Origin: Naegleria gruberi
Taxonomy: Eukaryota
Assembly: GCA_000004985.1 (NCBI GenBank)
Contig: GG738985.1
Reading direction: 5' to 3' (one strand)
Length of the DNA stretch: 14,937 bases
The notes under the pieces are model-generated. The model worked only from the letters and a program-made list of their open reading frames with translations. It was not told the origin of the DNA and did not search any database. Positions 1,122 through 14,528 of the stretch are shown here, in pieces (positions within the stretch are counted from its first letter, which is position 1; every line of letters begins with the position of its first letter). Both the position numbers and the translations under genes were made by a program.

Positions 1122-1265
1122 AATAGAGTAATGTCATAAGAAACAAGTACAGACTCGAGAAAAGAAATACAAAGAGAAACAACATTAGTTAAAGCAATAT
1201 TTGGTGAATCCAATTTTGGAATGTTAAATTTTTAAAAATTTAAAATAAATGTAATTAATCTAAAT

Positions 1266-1957
1266 TTATTGGTTTAATGTTATTTCGTCTATTAATTCTT
1301 CTGTTACAATTAGCACTTGATTTGTTTCTGATATGCCTTTGAAATTCTGTAATAAATTCTTCAGTATCCAATAATGCAAACCCTAAAATATTTGAAAAAT
1401 AATTAAAATTAATTAAAAATAAATAAAATTAACATACAATTTCTTTCAAGTCTTCTTCTTCTCTTTCAGTAAGCTCTTCTTCACTTCTTGCTTCCAAAGT
1501 TTCTGAAAATAATTTTACAAAGTGATGGGCTAATGACACTAACAATTCTTCCTTCTTTAAAATATCTAGTACAAAATCCGAACCTTGTTTTTGTACATAT
1601 TTGTAAAAACCTTGAATAATACCTTTGGAAAACCTATTCTGTATTTAATTTAATAATTATACGAATAACTTACACTTTATGTTTGGTTTGCCAAACCTTT
1701 TTTAATCTAGTATGATTTAAACTTGCAAATTTTGTATCGGAAAGGTTTGGTATAATTCTTTTTGTTCTTTCTGTCAATAAGAATTATCACACTGGTAATA
1801 ATTAGATAGAATACTTACTCTTTGATACTTTCTTTTGTGGTGTACCTTGTGAAGTTTGTTTGTTTTGAGTTGATTCTTGATCAGATTCTTCTTGATCAGA
1901 TGCTGATCTTGGTGAGGTATATTGATTTGAAGGGGTTGGTTGTGATCTTGCTGGCAT
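1266..1957 (-). CDS. Four-exon gene for a ~183-aa protein of unknown function, with a Ser/Gln-rich N-terminus and an acidic stretch near the C-terminus. Exons are 1819-1957, 1676-1770, 1438-1638 and 1266-1382.
   Basis: Manual splicing on the minus strand. The ATG is at 1957 (MPARSQPTPSNQYTSPRSASDQEESDQESTQNKQTSQGTPQKKVSK). There are three short introns with canonical ends, and the reading frame is kept across all junctions (…KRTKRIIPNLSDTKFASLNHTRLKKVWQTKHK | NRFSKGIIQGFYKYVQKQGSDFVLDILKKEELLVSLAHHFVKLFSETLEARSEEELTEREEEDLKEI | GLHYWILKNLLQNFKGISETNQVLIVTEELIDEITLNQ*). The exact 3' acceptor of the last intron, and hence the C-terminal frame, is the least certain part. Confidence 0.5.
1383..1437 (-). 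other. Spliceosomal intron, 55 nt, GTATGTTAA…TATTTTAG.
   Basis: Minus-strand sequence GTATGTTAATTTTATTTATTTTTAATTAATTTTAATTATTTTTCAAATATTTTAG. The donor is a canonical GTATGT. It is extremely AT-rich, as expected for introns in this kind of genome. Confidence 0.45.
1639..1675 (-). other. Spliceosomal intron, 37 nt, GTGTAAGT…AAATACAG.
   Basis: Minus-strand sequence is GTGTAAGTTATTCGTATAATTATTAAATTAAATACAG. Splicing here gives phase 0 and a fully open 67-codon exon 3. Using the GT two nucleotides downstream gives a stop within ~20 codons. Confidence 0.45.
1771..1818 (-). other. Spliceosomal intron, 48 nt, GTAAGTAT…TTGACAG.
   Basis: Minus-strand sequence is GTAAGTATTCTATCTAATTATTACCAGTGTGATAATTCTTATTGACAG. 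Removing it joins exon 1 (ending with 1 nt of phase) to an exon 2 frame that is open. The alternative acceptor at 1792 gives an immediate stop. Confidence 0.45.
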
Positions 1958-2101
1958 GTCTGGTCGAAAGTGAGTCGAATATTGATGTTAACTTACTGAT
2001 ATTTTTTTGTTGTTGTTTTTCTACTTTTCTCTGGCAGTGGTGATATGAACACTTTACAATCTATTTTTAAAATATCGGCAAAATTTTGGAAAAAAAAATA
2101 A

Positions 2102-4969
2102 ATGAAAATTCCACAAGCGAAAATATTGTTTTCACACAGGGTTGACCCTCGAAAAGCAAAACTGTATTGTTCTAGTTGTAATAATTATGTGAAATCATCA
2201 ACTGATGTCAAAATTTGTAGTTCAAGTAACAAAAAATCTCATTTTCATAGGGCAATTAAAGTTAGGTGTAAAAATCAAGAATGTAAAAATTTTGATTCAT
2301 TTACCACCTTAATATGCCCCTTTTGTTCAAAGTCTTTTTCAAATGCAACCACTTTAAAGAAACATTTGAAAAGTGAGCACACAAATAGAAATAGTATATT
2401 CAATTGTTGTAATGTGATAACCTCTGAAGAAGCAACAATAATGGAACATATAATTGATAATCATCTTCCTCATATTGATTCATTAGATCAACTAACATCA
2501 AATTCTTGCAACCATTCCGTACAACAGAATGACAATAATATTAATTTTAGGCACGTTCCAGAAGGTGCACAAACAGATGAAAATGCTTATTGGGCAGTTT
2601 GGAAAATGAGCAAAAATTCAAAAACATTAATATTTGAGCCCAATAGTGATAAATCAGTTAAGGAAGTTGGTGATGAATTAGAAGAATCATATAAGAAAGT
2701 TATTGGAGATTTATTTGATTGTAGTTCAATAATTGAATCAAAACAAATTGAAAATAATATTGAAATTGAACATATTCATAATAGATTCGAATCAAAATAT
2801 GCTCCTTTCAAAGATGAATTTGAATGGAGTCTGTTCATGTTAGTTAAAAATGACAGATTGTCAAAAGTTCAGTATGAAAGAGTTGTTGAGATATTTGCTT
2901 TAAAGGATATTAATATTCCTTCTTATGATTCTATTTGTAGAAAACCTATTGATTTTCAAAAACCTATTTCACCACTAGATGATAATGATTTTGTTTATTA
3001 TAGTTTAAGGGAAACTATCAACAATCTGCTTGCAGATCCTTTTATTTCTAATAATATTTATACTAAAGATGGAGCTCTTAACTTCAATAGAGAACAACAA
3101 CCATTCAAAACAAATGGTTTCATGAAGATTGCCAACAAGATTGATTCAACTCCTATTGTATTTGCTCCATATTTAGATGAATATCAAAAGAATAGAACAG
3201 GTACAAGTCAAGTTACTGGATTTTATTTTACTTTATTCAACTTTGAACATAATTTTATGACAAGCTCAATGGAATCCATTTCATTACTTGGGAAATGTAG
3301 AAATATTAAGGGTTTATTTAAAATGTTGGAAATGTTTGTTAATGAATATAATGAAATTGAAGGGAAAACATTTATTGTGAAACATTCAGGTTTACAAAAA
3401 GAAGTATCTCTTCAATACGTATTAGGTCCTTGGATTTGGGATTCAGTTCAAAGATGGTTTACTTTATTCATGGAACAATATCTTTGCTCCAGATGTCATT
3501 GTCCAAAAAATATGTACAGCTCAACTCCAGATGAATTAATTGATTCATACAATGAGTTCTGTTTCAAGAATCCGTCTTTAAATTTGAAACAATTTATACC
3601 AAAGCCCTGTAAAGAACATGAAACGGAAACAGAACAAGAATTGCAAGTTGAAACTGATCTCCAAACGCACAATCCAAATGATATTGATGAAGAATGTAAT
3701 TATTTCAATCCAGAAACAGGAAAAGAAGATGATCAAGATGAAGAAAATCAAGAAACTGATAATATGGAAGATGAACCAGTTTTAGAACATACATTTAGCA
3801 TTAGAACTGTAGATGAAGCTGTTTCAATTCATGAAAGTATTGAAACAACACCTAAAAAGGAAAGAAAAGGGTTTAAATTATTATCAAAACAAGAAATTGA
3901 ATTAATTGATTCAAAATTTGATTACAATACTGTACAAAGAAAGCTCACTCAAATGAAAAAAAATGGTGTTACACTTGAAAAACAAGATAACCCATTGTAT
4001 AAGCTAAGAAATCATGACGTATTTAAGAATTCAACAGTTGACTTTATGCATGTGTTTGTTCAAGGTGAATTAAGAAGACATTTGACTGCATTAATAGAAT
4101 ATTTTTCATACCCAAGATTATTTTCTGATTTTCAGGATATTATAGATGAGTTTTATTTAAGTTCTGGAGAATCAATTAGAATGAGAGCATCAAATTATTT
4201 GAATTGTTCAGCTGACGAATTTTTAGAATTTGGTTTTTATAGTATTCCAATAATTTACAAGTTAATTTATTCAAATAAGGAATTGAAACATATTTCACAA
4301 GAAAAAAGAACTAGACATGTTGTTTGTTGGGTAGAACATATTGCATGGACGAGTATGTTATTAAGAAATGAGGTAACAATTCTTTCTATTGAAAAATCCA
4401 AATCTATTTTCCTCCAATTCAGAGAACATTATGTTGAATTATATCCAAACAAATGTCATAATGTTAATTTCCATTGGGTAACTCATTTATTTGAAGATTG
4501 TCAAGAATGGGGAAGTCCTAGATACTTTTGGGCTTTATTATTCGAATTGAAACACAAACTTTTTAAAAAGTTTAATGATGGATCGAATCATAAGGATGTT
4601 GAAAAGCGGGGTGCAGCATTTGAAAAGTTACATGTCAGTCTTAATGCTAAATATCCTTGGTTACGAAAGAAATCAAAACAATGGTTTAAAGCAATTGCTC
4701 CAAATCAATACTTAATGTTTAAACAAGAAGGAAAATTATACATAGGATGTATTCAATCACATACAAAAGATACAGTTAAATTTGGAAAAGTGTGGATTGT
4801 TACAAATGATTATCACCAAGTATGTCAATTCAGAAAATTGAATAGAGTGAAATCTTCCAATTTAAACGTTGATTGGAAAGATATCAATGCTAGATGCCAA
4901 GTTGTTTACATTGATTCCAAGTTTTACTTGAATCAATTTATGTTAATCATGAATTATTATAAATTTTAA
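2102..4969 (+). CDS. Intronless 955-aa ORF. It has an N-terminal C2H2-type zinc finger, an acidic central linker, and a C-terminal region resembling Tnp2/En-Spm-type (CACTA/KDZ-superfamily) transposases. It is a putative transposase or a transposase-derived gene.
   Basis: ATG at 2102 in an A-rich context (aaaaaaaaataaATG), then a single 2.9-kb ORF. The C2H2-like finger is LICPFCSKSFSNATTLKKHLKSEH. The block KDGALNFNREQQPF…FYFTLFNFEHNF…LLGKCRNIKG…CSRCHC follows the layout of the Tnp2-family catalytic region (DG…F, then a conserved C..C cluster). The C-terminal HNVNFHWVTHLFEDCQEWGSPRYFWALLFELKHKLFKK fits the DUF4218-like motif H..HL..D...GP...W..FE...K.L that I recall from Tnp2/CACTA transposases. 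There is a poly-acidic linker (DEECNYFNPETGKEDDQDEENQETDNMEDEP). The family assignment is from memory of these motifs, not from a search. Confidence 0.55.
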   Translation: MKIPQAKILFSHRVDPRKAKLYCSSCNNYVKSSTDVKICSSSNKKSHFHRAIKVRCKNQECKNFDSFTTLICPFCSKSFSNATTLKKHLKSEHTNRNSIFNCCNVITSEEATIMEHIIDNHLPHIDSLDQLTSNSCNHSVQQNDNNINFRHVPEGAQTDENAYWAVWKMSKNSKTLIFEPNSDKSVKEVGDELEESYKKVIGDLFDCSSIIESKQIENNIEIEHIHNRFESKYAPFKDEFEWSLFMLVKNDRLSKVQYERVVEIFALKDINIPSYDSICRKPIDFQKPISPLDDNDFVYYSLRETINNLLADPFISNNIYTKDGALNFNREQQPFKTNGFMKIANKIDSTPIVFAPYLDEYQKNRTGTSQVTGFYFTLFNFEHNFMTSSMESISLLGKCRNIKGLFKMLEMFVNEYNEIEGKTFIVKHSGLQKEVSLQYVLGPWIWDSVQRWFTLFMEQYLCSRCHCPKNMYSSTPDELIDSYNEFCFKNPSLNLKQFIPKPCKEHETETEQELQVETDLQTHNPNDIDEECNYFNPETGKEDDQDEENQETDNMEDEPVLEHTFSIRTVDEAVSIHESIETTPKKERKGFKLLSKQEIELIDSKFDYNTVQRKLTQMKKNGVTLEKQDNPLYKLRNHDVFKNSTVDFMHVFVQGELRRHLTALIEYFSYPRLFSDFQDIIDEFYLSSGESIRMRASNYLNCSADEFLEFGFYSIPIIYKLIYSNKELKHISQEKRTRHVVCWVEHIAWTSMLLRNEVTILSIEKSKSIFLQFREHYVELYPNKCHNVNFHWVTHLFEDCQEWGSPRYFWALLFELKHKLFKKFNDGSNHKDVEKRGAAFEKLHVSLNAKYPWLRKKSKQWFKAIAPNQYLMFKQEGKLYIGCIQSHTKDTVKFGKVWIVTNDYHQVCQFRKLNRVKSSNLNVDWKDINARCQVVYIDSKFYLNQFMLIMNYYKF

Positions 4970-5606
4970 AAATTTTGAAATTCTTTTACAATAAAAAAAT
5001 TTAATATTGAAATAATAATATATTTATTCGATAGTTGTTCAACCTTTTCAGGTAAAAAATTAAATTTATGTAATAAAGGACTCATTCTATAATATTACGA
5101 TTAATTTAAAATTCATATTGTTTATTTATTGTTAAATAAGTGTTATTTGTACTTTTATAGAAAATTAGCAAGGATTTCAATGGTGGAACTGACTTGTAAA
5201 AATTTTAAAAATATCCATGCCTTGTTTGCATACCTATTCCCGTTCCTATTTTCTGCCGTACCTTGGTCGTTTCTTAAAAATAAGTCACCAAACCTTCGCT
5301 GTTCCTTGCCAATTCTATTTTTATTACACACCGTACCTTTTCCATGCCTCACCATTCCTGTTGCGCTCCAAGGTATTTCTTGACTAAAGCAACATGTCAA
5401 TCTGTCCAGTGTTGGCTTTGTTAGTGTGAAAAAATTAGAATGGAAAGTAATCCGCCCTTGACTAGTGACAAAAACACTAATAGATTAGGTTTTAGTCTGC
5501 AATTAGAATGTAAGCTGTAAATTGTCACTTTGAGATCTCAATCGATTATAAACTCAATGGTTTAAGGTGTGTGTACAAAATATATTGAGACAATATCATT
5601 TTAATA

Positions 5607-8005
5607 CTAAAAAATGTGATCATCAGAATCATCATCATCGTCATCATCTTCATCATAGTAATTACCATATATATAACCCATATCAAGATCATCAGAATCA
5701 TCAGAGTTATAATCATCATCCTCATCAGATGTGTCTTCTTCCATGCTGTCTGTGTTAACCTGTACTTCTAATTGCTGTGTAATCCTTTTCAAAAGGGATG
5801 TCACATACAGGCTTCTCGACTCATTGAATGAAATGCAATCTGTTATAGCATCAAAAATGTCATCAACATTCAAATGTTTTGGTCTTACATCTAGATTGTG
5901 CTCTAAAATATTTAAAAAATTTGTTAAAACAAGCTCAGATAATACATCGGTATCATTTTCATAGAGGAATCCACAGGGACAGCCAAACTGGCCCATGNNN
6001 NNNNNNNNNNNNNNNNNNNNNNNNNNNNNNNNNNNNNNNNNNNNNNNATACGTCCCAACGTGATATGAGCGTCTTTAGATTTGGATTTGGCAAGAGATTT
6101 AACAATAACTTCTTCATTTCCTATTTCAGGATGAATACGAACACCCTTAAAAAATTTGACATCAAAAAAGAAGCTCACTACAATTGGTGATAACTCTCTA
6201 TCATTCTCAACTAAAAAACCCAACATTTCTGGAATTTGAAAATGCTTTGATATTTCATTCAATCGATCCTCGCATTCTTTTGTTTCAGGTAGATTGTTTC
6301 TATGGACAATATTTCCTAAATTTTTGAAAACCAACTTAGTAAGCTCTGTGTTCAACAAGGACTCAACCAATTTTTGAACAATATCCACTACTTCCAAAGA
6401 TTTAGAATCTATTGCTCCACGAACAATCTCATCAAGTGGACGTACAAGTGTCTCACTAAAAACAGAGGGCAGAGCAGGTATGTTCAGCAAGGCCTGAATA
6501 CTGTCGGCAACCTGTAAAAAATAGTCCTGCTCTTTCATACATTCAGCTACTTTTTGAATAACCTCGAGAGCTTTTTCTGAAAAAATACTTTCTGTACAAC
6601 AATACTTAAATGCTGCTGTGAATATTTTCAGATAATTAACTTTTGGTATTGGATTGAGAGAAAAGGCTTTCAAAATCTTGTGCATTATCTGAGAGTCGTA
6701 TGCATAATCAAATGTCAAGTGTTTGGCACCACAATTATATGCCTCCTCTCTTACTATTAAAGATTCCCTTTCTAGCAATGGCAATATAGCTTGAACAACA
6801 TTCTTACATCTAGAAAAATTTCTGTTGAAAACATGTTAGCAAGAAATAATATGATCCACTACTAACCTTTGATTATTACTCGGTGATGAAAGAGCTCTCA
6901 AACAATCTATTACTAATTCTTCATCAGAATATTTCAATAGTCTCGTTAAGAAGCTTGAAATGCTTTCAACAATATTATTATCACCTCTTTGATCAATTAT
7001 TTCCATTATAGAAATTATCTTTCTAACTCTCTTGTACTTTTCCTCTTTTGGAAATATTTTGATGCTTTCTTTTTCTATAACATTGATATCATATGAAACT
7101 TCCTGATAGAGAGTAAAGAAGGGATGTAAATCTTTGGCTGATTTATAAGCCTCACGAATTGAAGGTATTTTTGGATTGTCTATATGTTGATAAGCAGTCT
7201 TTCCTAATCTTGTTATACACATTGATCTTTGATCCTCATCTTTTGACTTGTAAATTAAATCTAATAATATGCAATCCATGTCATTCATATCAATATAACT
7301 ACCTTCCCAGTTAGATGCATTATAATAGGTAACTATTAGAGACTTGAAATGTTTTAAGAAATATTTGACCTGTAAACTTGGTACACCTGCTTCTGCAATC
7401 TTGATGGTTGCCACAAAGAGTGAAATCTTCCAATCAGGTATTTTCATTGATTGTGTGGTATAAAGTGTTATTGGCTGTTCAGTCTGACCTATTGCCACAT
7501 TCAAGAAATTTAACATGTTTGTTCCGAATGTGGAATCCAAACAATAGATATGCTTTAAAAATCCTCTTGCTGTGTTCTGGTTATTTTCTTCAAATAGGAA
7601 AGCATTCGGAAGTGCCTCGGCAGCCATCATACATATTTTGTAATTTACAATCATTTCATCATCACTTGATTCAATTTTAAAAGTATCATCTTCAGTACAG
7701 CCAAAACTCCACTCCTTTCCATTTGATACTGTTTTATACATTTCAATTAAATTTTGTACAAGTGTTTTACATGGCTCCTTTCGGTAAGAGGCTTGATTTA
7801 TCACTCTATTTCTCATCTCCTTTAAATGTTGTAATAATTCCTCTGATGTATATGTTGGCCAAGCCTCTGCCTTTTGATTTATATCCTGTTGAGTTTCATC
7901 AGAGTAATAATCAGAGTCATCATCACTCGAAGAATAATCCCGTCCATGCATATGATAACCAAACGAATGACCAAATCTTCGCACCAATCCCATATGATTG
8001 AACAT
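5607..8005 (-). CDS. Large (>800-aa) ARM/HEAT-like helical protein with Asp/Ser/Tyr-rich acidic N- and C-termini. It is one gene made of track ORFs 6836-8005, 5924-6784 and 5607-5996, joined by a 45-nt intron (6822-6866) and interrupted by the 50-N gap at 5998-6047.
   Basis: ATG at 8005 (MFNHMGLVRRFGHSFGYHMHGRDYSSSDDDSDYYSDE…). ORFs 6836-8005 and 5924-6784 are in the same frame. They are separated by a single TAA at 6836-6838, and the following 17 codons have no stop. The 5924-6784 ORF begins with TTG (the track printed it as M), so it has no start of its own. Removing the intron GTTAGTAG…CTAAC…CAACAG (6822-6866, 45 nt = 15 codons, with the TAA inside it) joins …SSPSNNQ to RNFSRCKNVVQAILPLLERESL… in frame. 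The ORF then runs into the gap. Below the gap, ORF 5607-5996 continues as a coding-looking sequence and ends …DDDYNSDDSDDLDMGYIYGNYYDEDDDDDDDSDDHIF*. The frame across the gap cannot be known. Confidence 0.6.
5998..6047. other. Scaffold gap of 50 N, inside the large minus-strand gene.
   Basis: A run of exactly 50 n. All five N runs in the window are exactly 50 long, which is a fixed-size gap placeholder, so the true length is unknown. Confidence 0.95.
6822..6866 (-). other. Spliceosomal intron, 45 nt (GTTAGT…CTAAC…ACAG), which contains the in-frame TAA that splits the two track ORFs.
   Basis: Minus-strand sequence GTTAGTAGTGGATCATATTATTTCTTGCTAACATGTTTTCAACAG. A branch-point-like CTAAC lies ~18 nt before the AG. 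Its length is a multiple of 3, which fits the fact that the flanking ORFs share a frame. Its size matches the other introns in the window. Confidence 0.6.
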
Positions 8006-8088
8006 GTTGTATTTTCTTTTGTTTGATTTTTTTCAAATTTTAAAAAAAAAATTAAGCGCGAAAATATTGTTATTATATTAACAAAATA

Positions 8089-8421
8089 TTATGTACTGTC
8101 TCGGAAGTGAATTGATCGTTGTCGGAATGGTTTTTCANNNNNNNNNNNNNNNNNNNNNNNNNNNNNNNNNNNNNNNNNNNNNNNNNNAGCAACTAAAACG
8201 AATTTAGTTCTTCTAGAATCATCATCAACAGCAACAGCACGATAAATACCAAACTTGACATCAGATGGACCGAATGAACCCAAGAATTCATCCCAATCAC
8301 CAGTACCAGTGGCATCCATGATCAAACCAGTCTTTTCTGGGACGAAAGTGAACCATTTAATGGATTCAGTCTTCAAGGATTCCCAAGCAGCATCAATTTC
8401 TGGAGCAACGTTAGTGGACAT
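8089..8421 (-). CDS. Coactosin-like ADF-H (actin-depolymerising-factor homology) domain protein. The C-terminal part is lost in the 50-N gap at 8138-8187, so the 3' end is uncertain.
   Basis: ATG at 8421 in context aaaaaaaaacacaagaacaaaATG. The product is MSTNVAPEIDAAWESLKTESIKWFTFVPEKTGLIMDATGTGDWDEFLGSFGPSDVKFGIYRAVAVDDDSRRTKFVLVA…. This matches the coactosin/COTL1 pattern (ID…A…W.TF…G.G…F…DV…S.R.KF.L..W) as I remember it. The track ORF start at 8454 (MFSHKKKHKNK) is probably 5' UTR. Below the gap the frame is arbitrary. One frame ends at TAA 8073-8075 (…SDNDQFTSETVHNILLI*) and another at 8089. Confidence 0.7.
   Translation of the reverse strand: MSTNVAPEIDAAWESLKTESIKWFTFVPEKTGLIMDATGTGDWDEFLGSFGPSDVKFGIYRAVAVDDDSRRTKFVLVAXXXXXXXXXXXXXXXXXEKPFRQRSIHFRDST
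8138..8187. other. Scaffold gap of 50 N, inside the coactosin-like gene.
   Basis: A run of exactly 50 n. Confidence 0.95.
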
Positions 8422-8892: not shown

Positions 8893-9711
8893 CTATTGAT
8901 GTGAAGGATAAAACTTGACAAAACATCCAATGGCATCTTGTGAAATTTGTAATGGATTGAAAGTTGTTTGTAAATATCCTTCAATACTATTGTTAATACT
9001 ACTATTACTATTAATACTATTATCACTACTGTTAGTAGTATGAGAAAAAATCATTTCACAATTTAAATTTTCCAAAATTGCAATTCTAGCATTCCAAAAT
9101 CTACCATGTGAATGTTCAATAATTGGTGCCTTATTAGGATGGTCAATTGATGGTGTATCAATTCCAATAAGGAGAAGATTAGGTAATTCTCTTGATAAAT
9201 ATTCAGCTGCACTTGGATGAAAATGTGCAAAATCATTGGTCCATTCTTGTTCATCACTTGGTTGATTGGATCGAGTCTTGATGATACATCTGAGAATTTT
9301 ATCTTTTGGAATTTTACTCTTTTCAATTGCATTTCGAAACATTTCTTCTGAAATTTCCAAATTATTCTTCAATTCTTCCACTAAATTTAATACTAAACAA
9401 GCTCCATTATATTGAAGAGTGTGAAAATATTCCACAATTGGATTCTTTTCAAAATGTTTAGGTTGATCAGCATGTGTTCCAGCATGACTATTCGAAAGTA
9501 TGACATTTCTAGTAACAATACAAACTCCATTACATGAAGATGAAACATCACACGATTGATTCATTAGACATGATGAACACAATGATTTTACATTTTCCTT
9601 CTCTAATTTTAATTCCTTCTCTATTAAATCATCCACTGAAATAAATTGAGCATACGGAGTGTAATCATGATATGGAAATGAAGCATATTTAGCACACGGA
9701 GAAACAGTCAA
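8893..9711 (-). CDS. Cyclase-family protein (kynurenine formamidase / arylformamidase-like, Pfam Cyclase fold). The true N-terminus is probably in an upstream exon.
   Basis: It contains the family signature HxGTHxDxPxH as SHAGTHADQPKHF, plus a downstream IGIDTPSIDHP and a C-terminal Asn/Ser-rich tract. The track ORF begins with TTG (printed as M). The frame stays open upstream to a TGA near 9838 with no in-frame ATG (only an out-of-frame ATG at ~9835). So the initiator Met is likely supplied by an upstream exon or a mis-called base. Confidence 0.7.
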   Translation of the reverse strand: MTVSPCAKYASFPYHDYTPYAQFISVDDLIEKELKLEKENVKSLCSSCLMNQSCDVSSSCNGVCIVTRNVILSNSHAGTHADQPKHFEKNPIVEYFHTLQYNGACLVLNLVEELKNNLEISEEMFRNAIEKSKIPKDKILRCIIKTRSNQPSDEQEWTNDFAHFHPSAAEYLSRELPNLLLIGIDTPSIDHPNKAPIIEHSHGRFWNARIAILENLNCEMIFSHTTNSSDNSINSNSSINNSIEGYLQTTFNPLQISQDAIGCFVKFYPSHQ

Positions 9712-10984: not shown

Positions 10985-11381
10985 ATGAAATTCAAGAGGA
11001 ATAAAACGTTAGACGAAACCGTTGTGTCTCCTTCCTCGTCAACACCAACCAATACATCATCTTCTTCTACATCGTCATCCTCTTCAAAGAAAAGACCTAG
11101 CAGTGTAAATAGTGACTTTGATGTTTCGAATTATGCCATTGTTTTTGAAGAAATGATGGATTCGAAAGAAACTCGTGATTTATTCTATGAATATTTGCAG
11201 CTTAATCGTTCGGTGGAATCTCTCATGTTCATGAATCAAGTTGAAGAATATCGTGCGGAATATAACAAGAAATTCGAGAATGTTATTTGTGGTGAAAATG
11301 TTGATAAAAAGCAAGNTTCATACCAAGATTGTAGAAATCTATTCGAAAGCAAGGGGTATTCTTGATCAATTTGTGTTCAAG
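10985..11381 (+). CDS. RGS (regulator of G-protein signalling) domain protein, 5' part. It has a Ser/Thr-rich N-terminus and the RGS domain begins ~residue 50. It is truncated by the gap at 11382-11431, and there is an apparent frameshift at the ambiguous base 11316.
   Basis: ATG at 10985 (MKFKRNKTLDETVVSPSSSTPTNTSSSSTSSSSSKKRPSS…). The next part, FEEMMDSKETRDLFYEYLQLNRSVESLMFMNQVEEYRAEYNKK, fits the RGS-box N-terminal consensus (F..ML.S..G…F..FL..EFSEENL.FW.ACEE(F/Y)KK). After the n at 11316 the RGS-like continuation (…IVEIYSKARGILDQFV, compare the canonical KAKKIYEEFI) is in the +1 frame. The frame-1 stop at 11363 therefore looks like an artefact. Confidence 0.65.
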
Positions 11382-11431
11382 NNNNNNNNNNNNNNNNNNN
11401 NNNNNNNNNNNNNNNNNNNNNNNNNNNNNNN
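11382..11431. other. Scaffold gap of 50 N, separating the 3' ends of the RGS gene (+) and the kinase gene (-).
   Basis: A run of exactly 50 n. Confidence 0.95.
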
Positions 11432-12539
11432 GAAGTAGAAGTATCCAATGTTAATATTTGATACAATGTCACGCCAAGTGAATACATGTCAGTGGCAAAT
11501 CCATAAGGTTGATTCAATAGTAATTCTGGTGAAATGTAGCATAGAGAACCAGCATAGGTATTTTTGGTAGTGTGTGCATTCTCTTTGGCAATACCAAAAT
11601 CTCCCAAAACAACCTCAATCAAATTCGAGTCAATATCCCTTCTTCTGATAAAGATGTTTTGAGGTTTAATGTCTCGGTGCATGACTTGTTGGGAATGCAC
11701 ATAGTTAAGAGCTTGGGTGGTTTGAGAAATGATTTTCCAAATAATTGGCAGTGGAATAGTTGCGGCTGATTTGATGGATTCACTAATGATGGACATGACA
11801 TCTCCCTTATACAGTTCCATGACAATGCAAAACATGGAAGAATGCTCGGTATCGACTTGGAAAGTGTCATAAATCTTTACCACATTCTGGTGATCCAATT
11901 GCTTGACAAGATTGGCTTCATTTTCAGCATCTTGTGTTGGTTTCTGAATTGAATTTTTACCTGTAGCTATGGTTTTAATTGCCACATTTGGTTCCTCTGG
12001 TGTATTCAACACTTGGCATTCAAAAATGATACCAAATCCTCCCTCTCCAATAATTCGAATAATTTTGTATCGATCATCAAGAGTCATTCCCAAATATTGT
12101 TCATATCTTCCATTGCCTGCTCTTTGTGGAAGAATTGAATCGACAGTATTCTTGACTCTCTTCAATTTAATCAGGTTGAGTTCATCATCCAATAATTGTA
12201 AATCCTTCATGTCCACAACATCCACAAATTCCTCAAAATCTGGATCATAGTATTGTAATTCGTAACTACCTCGAATTCCACATCTGAGCTTGGTTTTTTT
12301 CACAAAATCTTGAACACTCTCGGAATAATTGACAACCATTTTGAATCTCTTACGATACAGATTCAACATGTTATCTATATATTCCACTTCAAACTTGTAA
12401 CAGAGATAGGTTTCGGATTTGTTAAGGAGCTTTCGTGCCCAAATAATCATGTCTGAATTTTCAGTTGTTTCTGCAACAGAGGCCAAATCCATTCCATTCT
12501 TTTTAATATCCACATCAGCTCCCTTCTCAACTAGGATAA
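11432..12539 (-). CDS. Ser/Thr protein kinase, NEK/NimA-like, with an N-terminal ankyrin-repeat segment. Both ends run into 50-N gaps (12540-12589 and 11382-11431), so the CDS is incomplete at both ends.
   Basis: Kinase subdomains are visible: IGEGGFGIIFECQV (Gly loop), VAIKTI (VAIK), HRDIKPQNIFI (catalytic loop, NEK-like), DFGIAK (DFG), GSLCYISPELL (APE-like) and DMYSLGVTLYQIL (subdomain IX). An ankyrin-like stretch, ILVEKGADVDIKKNGMDLASVA, lies upstream. The track ORF 11377-12606 contains X runs at both ends. Confidence 0.85.
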
Positions 12540-12589
12540 NNNNNNNNNNNNNNNNNNNNNNNNNNNNNNNNNNNNNNNNNNNNNNNNNN
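12540..12589. other. Scaffold gap of 50 N, inside the 5' part of the kinase gene.
   Basis: A run of exactly 50 n. Confidence 0.95.
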
Positions 12590-12792
12590 GTCAGATGCAA
12601 AATCAAATTAACTTCAAATAAATGTTGTGTTGACTGTACAAATTATAGAAGAAGTATCAAAAATCCTTGCGTAAAATTATTTCAACTCCTGCTCCCGCAG
12701 ATTCTCCGTTGTAACAAATTTTACTCCGCAAACACAGTGTGCATAAATCAGGCGCAAGCATTGAACATCTCTCGATAACACTCAACAAAAAA

Positions 12793-13563: not shown

Positions 13564-14528
13564 ATTCTTTTAATCCTTGTAGTATGTTAATATTCATCAC
13601 GTGTTGAAAATGTTGTTGTTTTATTGTTAAAACAATGTTTTCATTCATCTGATGATAAATATGACGTTTATTATCTATTTAAATAGTAGTACTAAAAGAC
13701 TTGTAGTAGTACATGTTGAGTTATGGTCCATGTACTTTTTCAAAATTAACATGTACCTATCCCTATCAAACTTGACCAAAATTGCTCATAGAAAGTTCTC
13801 CTACTATTGACCATTCCAAACAATACTATATTGACAGTTTTCCGACTTGTCCAATAGATACAGTGGATGATGAATTTAATGAAAAATAAATTAATTCCAC
13901 AAATACTATTATATTGATAATGAAACAATAATAGTATTGATGATGGCGAATGATCGGATGATGGAACACCAGCTTGTGATTTTCCATCATGATGAAAAAT
14001 AAAATCCAATTTCATAATGATACTCCACTAATAAAAATTACTATTATTACTACTATTCAGATGATGTTGAGATGGTGATGTGAAAGTTTGATAGCTTCAA
14101 GATGTGAAACCACTCCTAAAATCAGCATTACCACAAATTACATTGTTGATTTTAAAAATATTTTTTATAAATATTTTTAATGCCCCGAATAACTTGTTTG
14201 GTCCGTGTTTTGGTCGTTTTGGTGACCAAAGCTTGAATTTTATTTTATTTGTGATCGATTTTGTAAATTTTTCATTCTGACCACCAACTTTGATCGATTT
14301 TTAATTTTAAATTCAGAGCAAAAATGGGACCATACTGTTCTTCTTCGTGATTACTATCAAAACTTACATACGCAGCAGAGGGATACGAATGGATTTACTT
14401 GATAAAAGTATCAAGTTAACACTAATAACATGAACAATAGATGAACAGTAACAATGATTGTTATTTACACATGAACAGCTATCAACAATCCAACCCGACT
14501 GCTGTTCATCATGATGTGTGATGATTCA

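What the first reader, a model, noticed from the sequence alone, without database searches (positions are those of the whole stretch)
6785..6870. Two large track ORFs are one gene: the in-frame TAA between them lies inside a 45-nt intron
ORFs 6836-8005 and 5924-6784 share a reading frame and are separated only by TAA 6836-6838. The second ORF has no ATG (its M is a TTG), and the 17 codons after the TAA are stop-free. A 45-nt segment, GTTAGTAG…CTAAC…CAACAG (6822-6866), carries the TAA. Its length is a multiple of 3, it has a branch-point-like CTAAC, and its size matches the 37-55-nt introns I reconstructed elsewhere in the window. Splicing it out gives a continuous >670-aa product that then runs into the gap at 5998-6047 and continues to 5607.
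Basis: seen in the sequence. Interest (0 to 1): 0.5.

Follow-up and report, generated by a model that had tools for sequence, protein, structure and literature searches.

The report
Ordinary short intron, already annotated

Summary
The window is a whole 14,937-nt scaffold of the amoeboflagellate Naegleria gruberi. On the minus strand, ORFs 8005-6836 and 6784-5924 share a frame. They are separated only by TAA 6838-6836, which lies in a 45-nt segment (6866-6822) starting AAG|GTTAGT, carrying CTAAC, and ending CAACAG|.

The intron reading is supported by comparison. An orthologue in a related organism (P0002, 826 aa, 51% identical) is one uninterrupted ORF on a genomic contig. It aligns end to end with the spliced product, with no gap at the junction. 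Of 26 in-frame, stop-free GT/GC..AG options, only this one is 45 nt, the length that gap-free alignment requires. An independent 99.9%-identical metagenome contig has the same intron and TAA, so it is not a sequencing error. That contig also fills gap 5998-6047 with 165 in-frame coding bases, giving an 822-aa protein.

It is already known. XP_002668663.1 (this scaffold) and the full-length XP_002671780.1 (a near-identical copy on a 304-kb scaffold) both contain SNNQ|RNFSRC.

No transcript data could be examined. The protein is a Naegleria-restricted alpha-solenoid of unknown function. Side result: the public model on this scaffold wrongly fuses an upstream cofilin/ADF gene and skips coding sequence at a gap.

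The parts
6867..8005 (-). Exon 1 of the gene. It starts at ATG 8005-8003 and ends ...CAA AG in phase 2. It encodes residues 1-379 plus two bases of codon 380.
   Evidence: ORF list and translation. The orthologue P0002 starts with the same MFNH... N-terminus. P0005 is identical.
6822..6866 (-). A 45-nt U2-type GT-AG spliceosomal intron: GTTAGTAG...CTAAC...CAACAG.
   Evidence: Read directly. It is the only 45-nt option among 26 in-frame, stop-free GT/GC..AG combinations. It is absent from the orthologue's continuous ORF. Public models P0001 and P0005 splice it out.
6861..6866 (-). 5' splice site GTTAGT, preceded by exon bases AAG.
   Evidence: It matches MAG|GTRAGT except for T at +3.
6835..6839 (-). 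Branch-point-like CTAAC. The presumed branch A is at 6836, 14 nt from the acceptor G. The in-frame TAA 6838-6836 lies inside it.
   Evidence: The first AG downstream of this motif is the acceptor at 6823-6822.
6822..6823 (-). 3' splice site AG (CAACAG|A).
6048..6821 (-). Exon 2, the part before the assembly gap. It begins A AAT TTT TCT AGA TGT = (R)NFSRC.
5998..6047 (.). Assembly gap of 50 N that stands for 165 nt (55 codons) of continuous coding sequence.
   Evidence: L002 859-1023 bridges window 6048 and 5997 in frame. The same residues are present in P0005.
5607..5997 (-). Exon 2, the part after the gap, including the acidic C-terminal tail and stop codon TAG 5609-5607.

Best explanation
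Window 8005-5607 (minus strand) is one protein-coding gene of Naegleria gruberi, interrupted by a single ordinary 45-nt U2-type GT-AG spliceosomal intron at 6866-6822.

The pre-mRNA is cut after ...CAAAG and rejoined to AAATTTTTC.... This removes the in-frame TAA, which is part of the CTAAC branch-site motif. The resulting mRNA encodes an 822-aa, Naegleria-restricted alpha-helical repeat (ARM/HEAT-like) protein with an acidic C-terminal tail.

Shown: the sequence anatomy, the collinearity with an intron-less orthologue, the persistence of the intron in an independent assembly, and identity with public models. Inferred: that the segment is actually removed from RNA, and the protein's fold class.
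For: 1. Anatomy. AAG|GTTAGT donor; CTAAC with its branch A 14 nt from the acceptor; the first AG after it is the acceptor; 45 nt, phase 2.
2. Orthologue. P0002 (826 aa) is a single uninterrupted ORF (L001 1975-4455) on a 10.6-kb multi-gene genomic contig. It aligns from Met1 to the acidic tail with the spliced product, 430 identical residues in 839 alignment columns (51% by BLASTP), with no gap at the junction.
3. Alternatives. Of 26 in-frame, stop-free GT/GC..AG options enclosing the TAA, only 6866-6822 is 45 nt. All others are 51-183 nt and would delete aligned residues.
4. Paralogue. P0004 (28% identical) also has no 15-residue insert there. REEAY just downstream is invariant in all family members.
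5. Independent assembly. Metagenome contig L002 (99.9% identical) carries the identical intron and TAA and continues the ORF through the gap.
6. Public models. XP_002668663.1 (P0001) and XP_002671780.1 (P0005) contain SNNQRNFSRC. P0005 equals the composite product except for a 2-residue indel.
7. Size class. Another public model on this scaffold (P0006) uses introns of 48 nt (1771-1818) and 40 nt (1634-1673) with GTAAGT donors.
Against: No transcript evidence was available. Scans of JGI metagenome contigs for the spliced and for the unspliced junction both returned nothing, so that test is uninformative.

The donor has T at +3 (GTTAGT), where the usual consensus has a purine. The splice-motif pattern alone is expected 0.68 times by chance in the window. 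The public models are predictions, not experiments.

A second in-frame acceptor 12 nt downstream (TTTTCTAG|, 6810) could be used instead or as well. It would make the product 4 residues shorter than the orthologue alignment.
Confidence: 0.93

Rival explanations
1. There are two separate genes. The first ends at TAA 6838-6836. The second starts downstream at a non-ATG codon or at the first in-frame ATG, near 6690.
For: Mechanical ORF calling gives two ORFs. A prokaryote-style gene caller on L002 produced a 428-aa 'protein' starting at a TTG (P0003).
Against: The orthologue is one ORF spanning both halves. There is no ATG for about 145 nt after the TAA. Conserved residues, including the invariant REEAY block, lie between the TAA and the first in-frame ATG. 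There is no intergenic spacer or promoter-like AT-rich tract such as the one seen upstream of ATG 8005.
Confidence: 0.02
2. The gene is a pseudogene, or this allele is disrupted: a 45-nt insertion carrying a stop, not removed from the RNA, truncates the protein at residue 389.
For: The orthologue lacks the 45 nt. The scaffold is a small, gap-ridden, apparently redundant copy of loci that sit on larger scaffolds.
Against: The insert has canonical GT..AG ends exactly where removal restores gap-free collinearity. The remaining 2.4 kb is free of stops and frameshifts. The same intron is present in an independent environmental strain. The other genomic copy is modelled with the same junction. An unspliced insertion would not be expected to carry donor, branch-site and acceptor signals in the right order and spacing.
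Confidence: 0.03
3. It is a genuine intron, but with regulated retention or an alternative 3' splice site (6810). This would yield a truncated 389-aa isoform or an NMD target, or a product 4 residues shorter, alongside the full-length protein.
For: The intron length is a multiple of 3 and it carries an in-frame stop. A second in-frame acceptor TTTTCTAG lies 12 nt downstream. Intron retention is reported as the dominant form of alternative splicing in non-animal eukaryotes, and it was detected in N. gruberi (PMC6142364).
Against: Nothing specific to this intron. The first AG after the branch site is the 6822 acceptor. The orthologue's length favours the 45-nt form.
Confidence: 0.1
4. The TAA is read through or recoded, so the 15 extra codons are translated.
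For: The segment keeps the frame (45 = 3 x 15).
Against: The 14 sense codons (LVVDHIISC-HVFN) have no counterpart in the orthologue or the paralogue. From general knowledge, N. gruberi uses the standard nuclear code.
Confidence: 0.01

Closest known systems
Annotated intron of N. gruberi gene NAEGRDRAFT_73290 (XP_002671780.1, D2VW83_NAEGR) and of NAEGRDRAFT_76421 (XP_002668663.1, D2W4T4_NAEGR)
   Same: Same junction, SNNQ|RNFSRC. NAEGRDRAFT_73290 gives the same 1-intron, roughly 820-aa product as reconstructed here, identical apart from a DD indel. NAEGRDRAFT_76421 is the model on this very scaffold.
   Different: NAEGRDRAFT_76421 replaces the true N-terminus (ATG 8005) with 76 residues of an upstream cofilin/ADF gene, through a 308-nt 'intron' across gap 8138-8187. 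It also skips 6049-5904 across gap 5998-6047.
Short U2-type GT-AG spliceosomal introns of compact protist and fungal genomes (yeast-like branch site UACUAAC)
   Same: GT..AG ends, G at +5, a CTAAC branch motif close to the 3' end, and a length of tens of nucleotides. It falls in the same size class as two other modelled introns in the window, 40 and 48 nt.
   Different: T at donor position +3. The other window introns have GTAAGT donors and looser branch motifs (CTAAT, TTAAT). Nothing mechanistically distinct.
ARM/HEAT alpha-solenoid proteins (importin-alpha/beta, RRP12, PP2A PR65)
   Same: The predicted all-helical repeat architecture of the encoded protein gives weak Foldseek matches to these.
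   Different: TM-scores are only 0.2-0.3 and the model's mean pLDDT is 59. There is no Pfam hit. The only sequence relatives among 1.8 billion representative proteins are Naegleria-type sequences. Membership of any named family is not shown.

Membership tests
U2-type (GT-AG) spliceosomal intron | GT at the 5' end and AG at the 3' end | tested here: met
   GT at 6866-6865 and AG at 6823-6822 on the minus strand.
U2-type (GT-AG) spliceosomal intron | Extended 5' splice site resembling MAG|GTRAGT (U1 pairing) | tested here: met
   AAG|GTTAGT fits at -2, -1, +1, +2, +4, +5 and +6. Only +3 (T) departs.
U2-type (GT-AG) spliceosomal intron | Branch-site motif (YTRAY / CTAAC) a short distance upstream of the first usable AG | tested here: met
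   CTAAC at 6839-6835. There is no AG between it and the acceptor at 6823-6822. The branch A is 14 nt from the acceptor G.
U2-type (GT-AG) spliceosomal intron | Removal restores one reading frame that is collinear with homologues lacking the segment | tested here: met
   Gap-free alignment across the junction to the uninterrupted orthologue ORF. It is the only 45-nt option.
U2-type (GT-AG) spliceosomal intron | Physically absent from mature mRNA | not testable with these tools
   No transcript data are reachable. The junction scans of metagenome contigs were empty for both the spliced and the unspliced form.
U2-type (GT-AG) spliceosomal intron | The host genome uses introns of this size and type | tested here: met
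   Public model P0006 on the same scaffold uses 48-nt and 40-nt GTAAGT..AG introns. That N. gruberi has spliceosomal introns is established knowledge (PMC3488318 and PMC6142364).
U12-type (minor) intron | Donor /RTATCCTT and branch site TCCTTAAC | tested here: not met
   The donor is GTTAGTAG and the branch region is TTGCTAACA.
Self-splicing group I / group II intron or other structured RNA | Match to a structured RNA family; length of hundreds of nucleotides | tested here: not met
   The segment is 45 nt. There is no Rfam match anywhere in the window at gathering thresholds.

The most novel reading that the evidence does not exclude
The intron is species-specific: it is present in both N. gruberi sequences examined and absent from the orthologue of the related organism. 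It carries an in-frame stop within its branch site. It could therefore be a recent intron gain, or a regulated retention switch that toggles between the full-length 822-aa protein and a 389-aa N-terminal fragment or an NMD target.
Probability: 0.1. Interest if true: 0.25.

Novelty: already known. Interest (0 to 1): 0.07.

Why it matters
It matters little beyond annotation hygiene. The result shows that the first-stage reader can recover a correct eukaryotic gene structure from raw sequence. The intron itself is canonical and is already in the public N. gruberi annotation.

The modest practical gain concerns the public model on this scaffold (XP_002668663.1), which appears to be a chimera. Its N-terminus belongs to a cofilin/ADF gene, and 87 residues are lost around an assembly gap. 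The correct product is the 822-aa protein that matches XP_002671780.1. The intron's absence from the orthologue adds one data point on intron gain or loss within Naegleria-like amoebae.

Tried and rejected
- **Motif statistics.** GTWWGT..CTAAC..AG was found once against 0.68 expected. This is not evidence on its own.
- **Transcript evidence.** Exact scans of JGI metagenome contigs for the spliced junction and the unspliced junction both gave 0 hits. The collection simply lacks this organism, so the test is uninformative.
- **DNA for other copies.** Look-ups for P0001, P0004 and P0005 found nothing on record. I could not check whether the paralogue has an intron at the same site, and I could not read the 304-kb scaffold copy.
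- **Function.**
  - Pfam gave nothing above threshold for the protein, its orthologue or its paralogue.
  - The AlphaFold model has mean pLDDT 59.
  - Foldseek against the PDB gave only generic ARM/HEAT solenoid hits with TM 0.2-0.3.
  - The afdb50 library was not available.
- **Literature on N. gruberi intron lengths.** The genome paper (PMID 20211133) is not held. Other papers mention Naegleria introns without lengths.
- **First reconstruction of the minus-strand gene in 1-2000.** My four-intron version had no start codon. The three-intron version starting at the ATG near 1957 matches public model P0006 over the first two introns. The third intron (1383-1437) stays unverified.
- **Rfam and tRNA scans of the window.** Both were empty.

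Full report
**Identity of the window.** A protein search with the spliced product returned a 100%-identical 'predicted protein [Naegleria gruberi]' whose contig is 14,937 nt long, the length of the window. The window is therefore an entire small scaffold of the N. gruberi assembly. It is about 31% G+C and has six runs of N. N. gruberi is a eukaryote with spliceosomal introns (PMC3488318, PMC6142364), so the bacterial-style ORF track is only a mechanical aid.

**The observation.**
- On the minus strand, ORF 8005-6836 (389 aa, ATG) and ORF 6784-5924 (TTG) are in the same frame. They are separated only by TAA 6838-6836 and 17 open codons.
- The segment 6866-6822 reads GTTAGTAGTGGATCATATTATTTCTTGCTAACATGTTTTCAACAG (45 nt). 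It is preceded by AAG and followed by AAAT.
- The exon ends in phase 2 (…CAA AG). Splicing makes AGA and the peptide …SSPSNNQ-R-NFSRCKNVVQ….
- CTAAC occupies 6839-6835 and contains the TAA. Its second A is 14 nt from the acceptor G, and there is no other AG in between.

**Is it more than chance?** The motif alone is not. A GTWWGT…CTAAC…AG pattern occurs once in the window against 0.68 expected in shuffles. The evidence lies in its position and in homology.

**Comparative evidence.**
- The search found P0002, an 826-aa protein 51% identical over the whole query. It is encoded by one uninterrupted 2,481-nt ORF (L001 1975-4455) on a 10.6-kb contig from run SRR25266747, which carries several genes on both strands and is therefore genomic DNA.
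- L001 also shares a second conserved segment with the window (78% identity, window 11075-11362). It comes from a related organism, probably another Naegleria species, though its name could not be established.
- The spliced N. gruberi product aligns with P0002 from MFNH… at residue 1 to the acidic C-terminus, with no gap at the junction: nine residues lie between ALSS and RCK in both.
- I enumerated every GT/GC…AG pair that encloses the TAA and leaves an open frame. There are 26, and only 6866-6822 is 45 nt. The rest (51-183 nt) would delete aligned residues.
- A profile-free HMMER scan of 1.8 billion representative proteins added one more relative, P0004, a 28%-identical N. gruberi paralogue (XP_002679521.1). 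It has no 15-residue insert at this point either. The REEAY motif just downstream is invariant in all family members.
- That motif lies between the TAA and the first in-frame ATG of the 'second ORF', which rules out two independent genes.

**Not a sequencing error, and the gap.** An ENA metagenome contig (L002, 3,201 nt) matches window 6905-6048 at 99.9% and 5997-5371 at 99.4%. It contains the identical 45-nt segment with its TAA. It also supplies 165 nt (55 codons) where the window has 50 N (5998-6047), and these are continuous with the reading frame on both sides. The complete CDS (8005-6867, 6821-6048, 165 nt from L002, 5997-5607) is 2,469 nt and encodes 822 aa with a single terminal TAG. 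The '>670 aa' figure only reflects reading the Ns as codons.

**Already annotated.**
- P0001 (XP_002668663.1, NAEGRDRAFT_76421), the model on this scaffold, contains SNNQRNFSRC.
- The cluster of P0003 also holds P0005 (XP_002671780.1, NAEGRDRAFT_73290), an 820-aa model on a 304-kb scaffold. It is identical to my composite product except for a two-residue DD indel in the acidic tail, and it has the same junction.
- Another public model on this scaffold, P0006, uses introns of 48 nt (1771-1818) and 40 nt (1634-1673) with GTAAGT donors.

**Mechanism.** This is a canonical U2-type intron. It is not U12-type, because the donor and branch motifs differ. It is not a structured self-splicing element, because it is only 45 nt and has no Rfam hit. 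Its actual removal from RNA is inferred and was not observed, since no transcript data could be reached. Intron retention, or use of the in-frame acceptor 12 nt downstream (6810), cannot be excluded as minor outcomes.

**The protein.** It has no Pfam family. An AlphaFold model of the orthologue, built from a four-sequence alignment, has mean pLDDT 59, with 65-85 in the central 190-640 region. It is all-helical, and the junction falls in a loop between helices 366-377 and 386-400. Foldseek against the PDB returns only generic ARM/HEAT solenoids (RRP12, importins, PR65) at TM 0.2-0.3. The best description is a Naegleria-restricted alpha-solenoid with an acidic tail, of unknown function.

**Side results.**
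- P0001 maps to 8421-8194, 7885-6050 and 5903-5610. Its first 76 residues are the N-terminal half of a Cofilin/ADF domain (Pfam E = 8.9e-7, profile positions 3-76 of 125). They belong to a separate upstream gene that is cut by gap 8138-8187.
- The model's 'intron' 8193-7886 swallows the AT-rich intergenic region and the true ATG 8005. Its last 'intron' skips real coding sequence around gap 5998-6047. Both are artefacts of the gaps.
- The window's genes have near-identical copies on two different large scaffolds (P0005 on 304 kb, P0007 on 938 kb). L002 departs from the window at 5371 into an EGF-like repeat gene that the window lacks. The small scaffold may therefore be a redundant haplotype fragment or a chimera.

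**Verdict.** It is already known and biologically ordinary.

Noticed in passing
window 7886-8421 (- strand), gap 8138-8187: Public model XP_002668663.1 (P0001) takes its first 76 residues from 8421-8194. These are the N-terminal half of a Cofilin/ADF domain (Pfam PF00241, E = 8.9e-7). It joins them over a 308-nt 'intron' spanning the N-gap to 7885, bypassing the true ATG at 8005. This looks like a chimera of two genes caused by the gap.
   Followed up: partly
window 5904-6049 (- strand), gap 5998-6047: The same public model skips this stretch as an intron. L002 shows that the 50 N stand for 165 nt of coding sequence and that 5997-5904 is also coding. The model loses 87 residues.
   Followed up: yes
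window about 5371; L002 1649-3201: The 99%-identical metagenome contig L002 stops matching the window at 5371, about 240 nt past the stop codon. It continues into a 492-aa Cys-rich EGF-like repeat ORF that has no counterpart in the window. This could be a structural difference between strains, a chimeric metagenome contig, or a misjoin in this small scaffold.
   Followed up: partly
window 1200-1990 (- strand): A small multi-exon gene (public model P0006, 146 aa) has annotated introns at 1771-1818 (48 nt) and 1634-1673 (40 nt). A further candidate intron at 1383-1437 (55 nt, GTATGT..TTTTAG) would extend the product to 182 aa, where the model instead stops at ...EIVC. A near-identical copy on a 938-kb scaffold (P0007) is modelled quite differently.
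   Followed up: partly
whole window: Genes of this 14.9-kb, six-gap scaffold have near-identical copies on two different large N. gruberi scaffolds: P0005 on 304 kb and P0007 on 938 kb. This suggests the scaffold is a redundant haplotype fragment or a chimeric assembly product.
   Followed up: no
L001 1975-4455 vs window 6822-6866: The orthologue in the related organism (run SRR25266747) has no intron at this position. This is an intron presence/absence difference between close relatives, and the direction (gain or loss) is undetermined.
   Followed up: partly
window 14335-14371 (- strand): A candidate 37-nt intron (GTATGTAAG...GAACAG) joins two open frames of at least 51 and at least 30 codons.
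   Followed up: no
window 2102-4969 (+), 8893-9711 (-), 11377-12606 (-), 10985-11365 (+): Neighbouring ORFs: a 955-aa ORF with one C2H2 zinc finger that is below Pfam's cutoff; a putative cyclase (PF04199); a protein kinase domain cut by gap 11382-11431; and an ORF with a weak, sub-threshold RGS hit that has a 78%-identical DNA match in L001.
   Followed up: no
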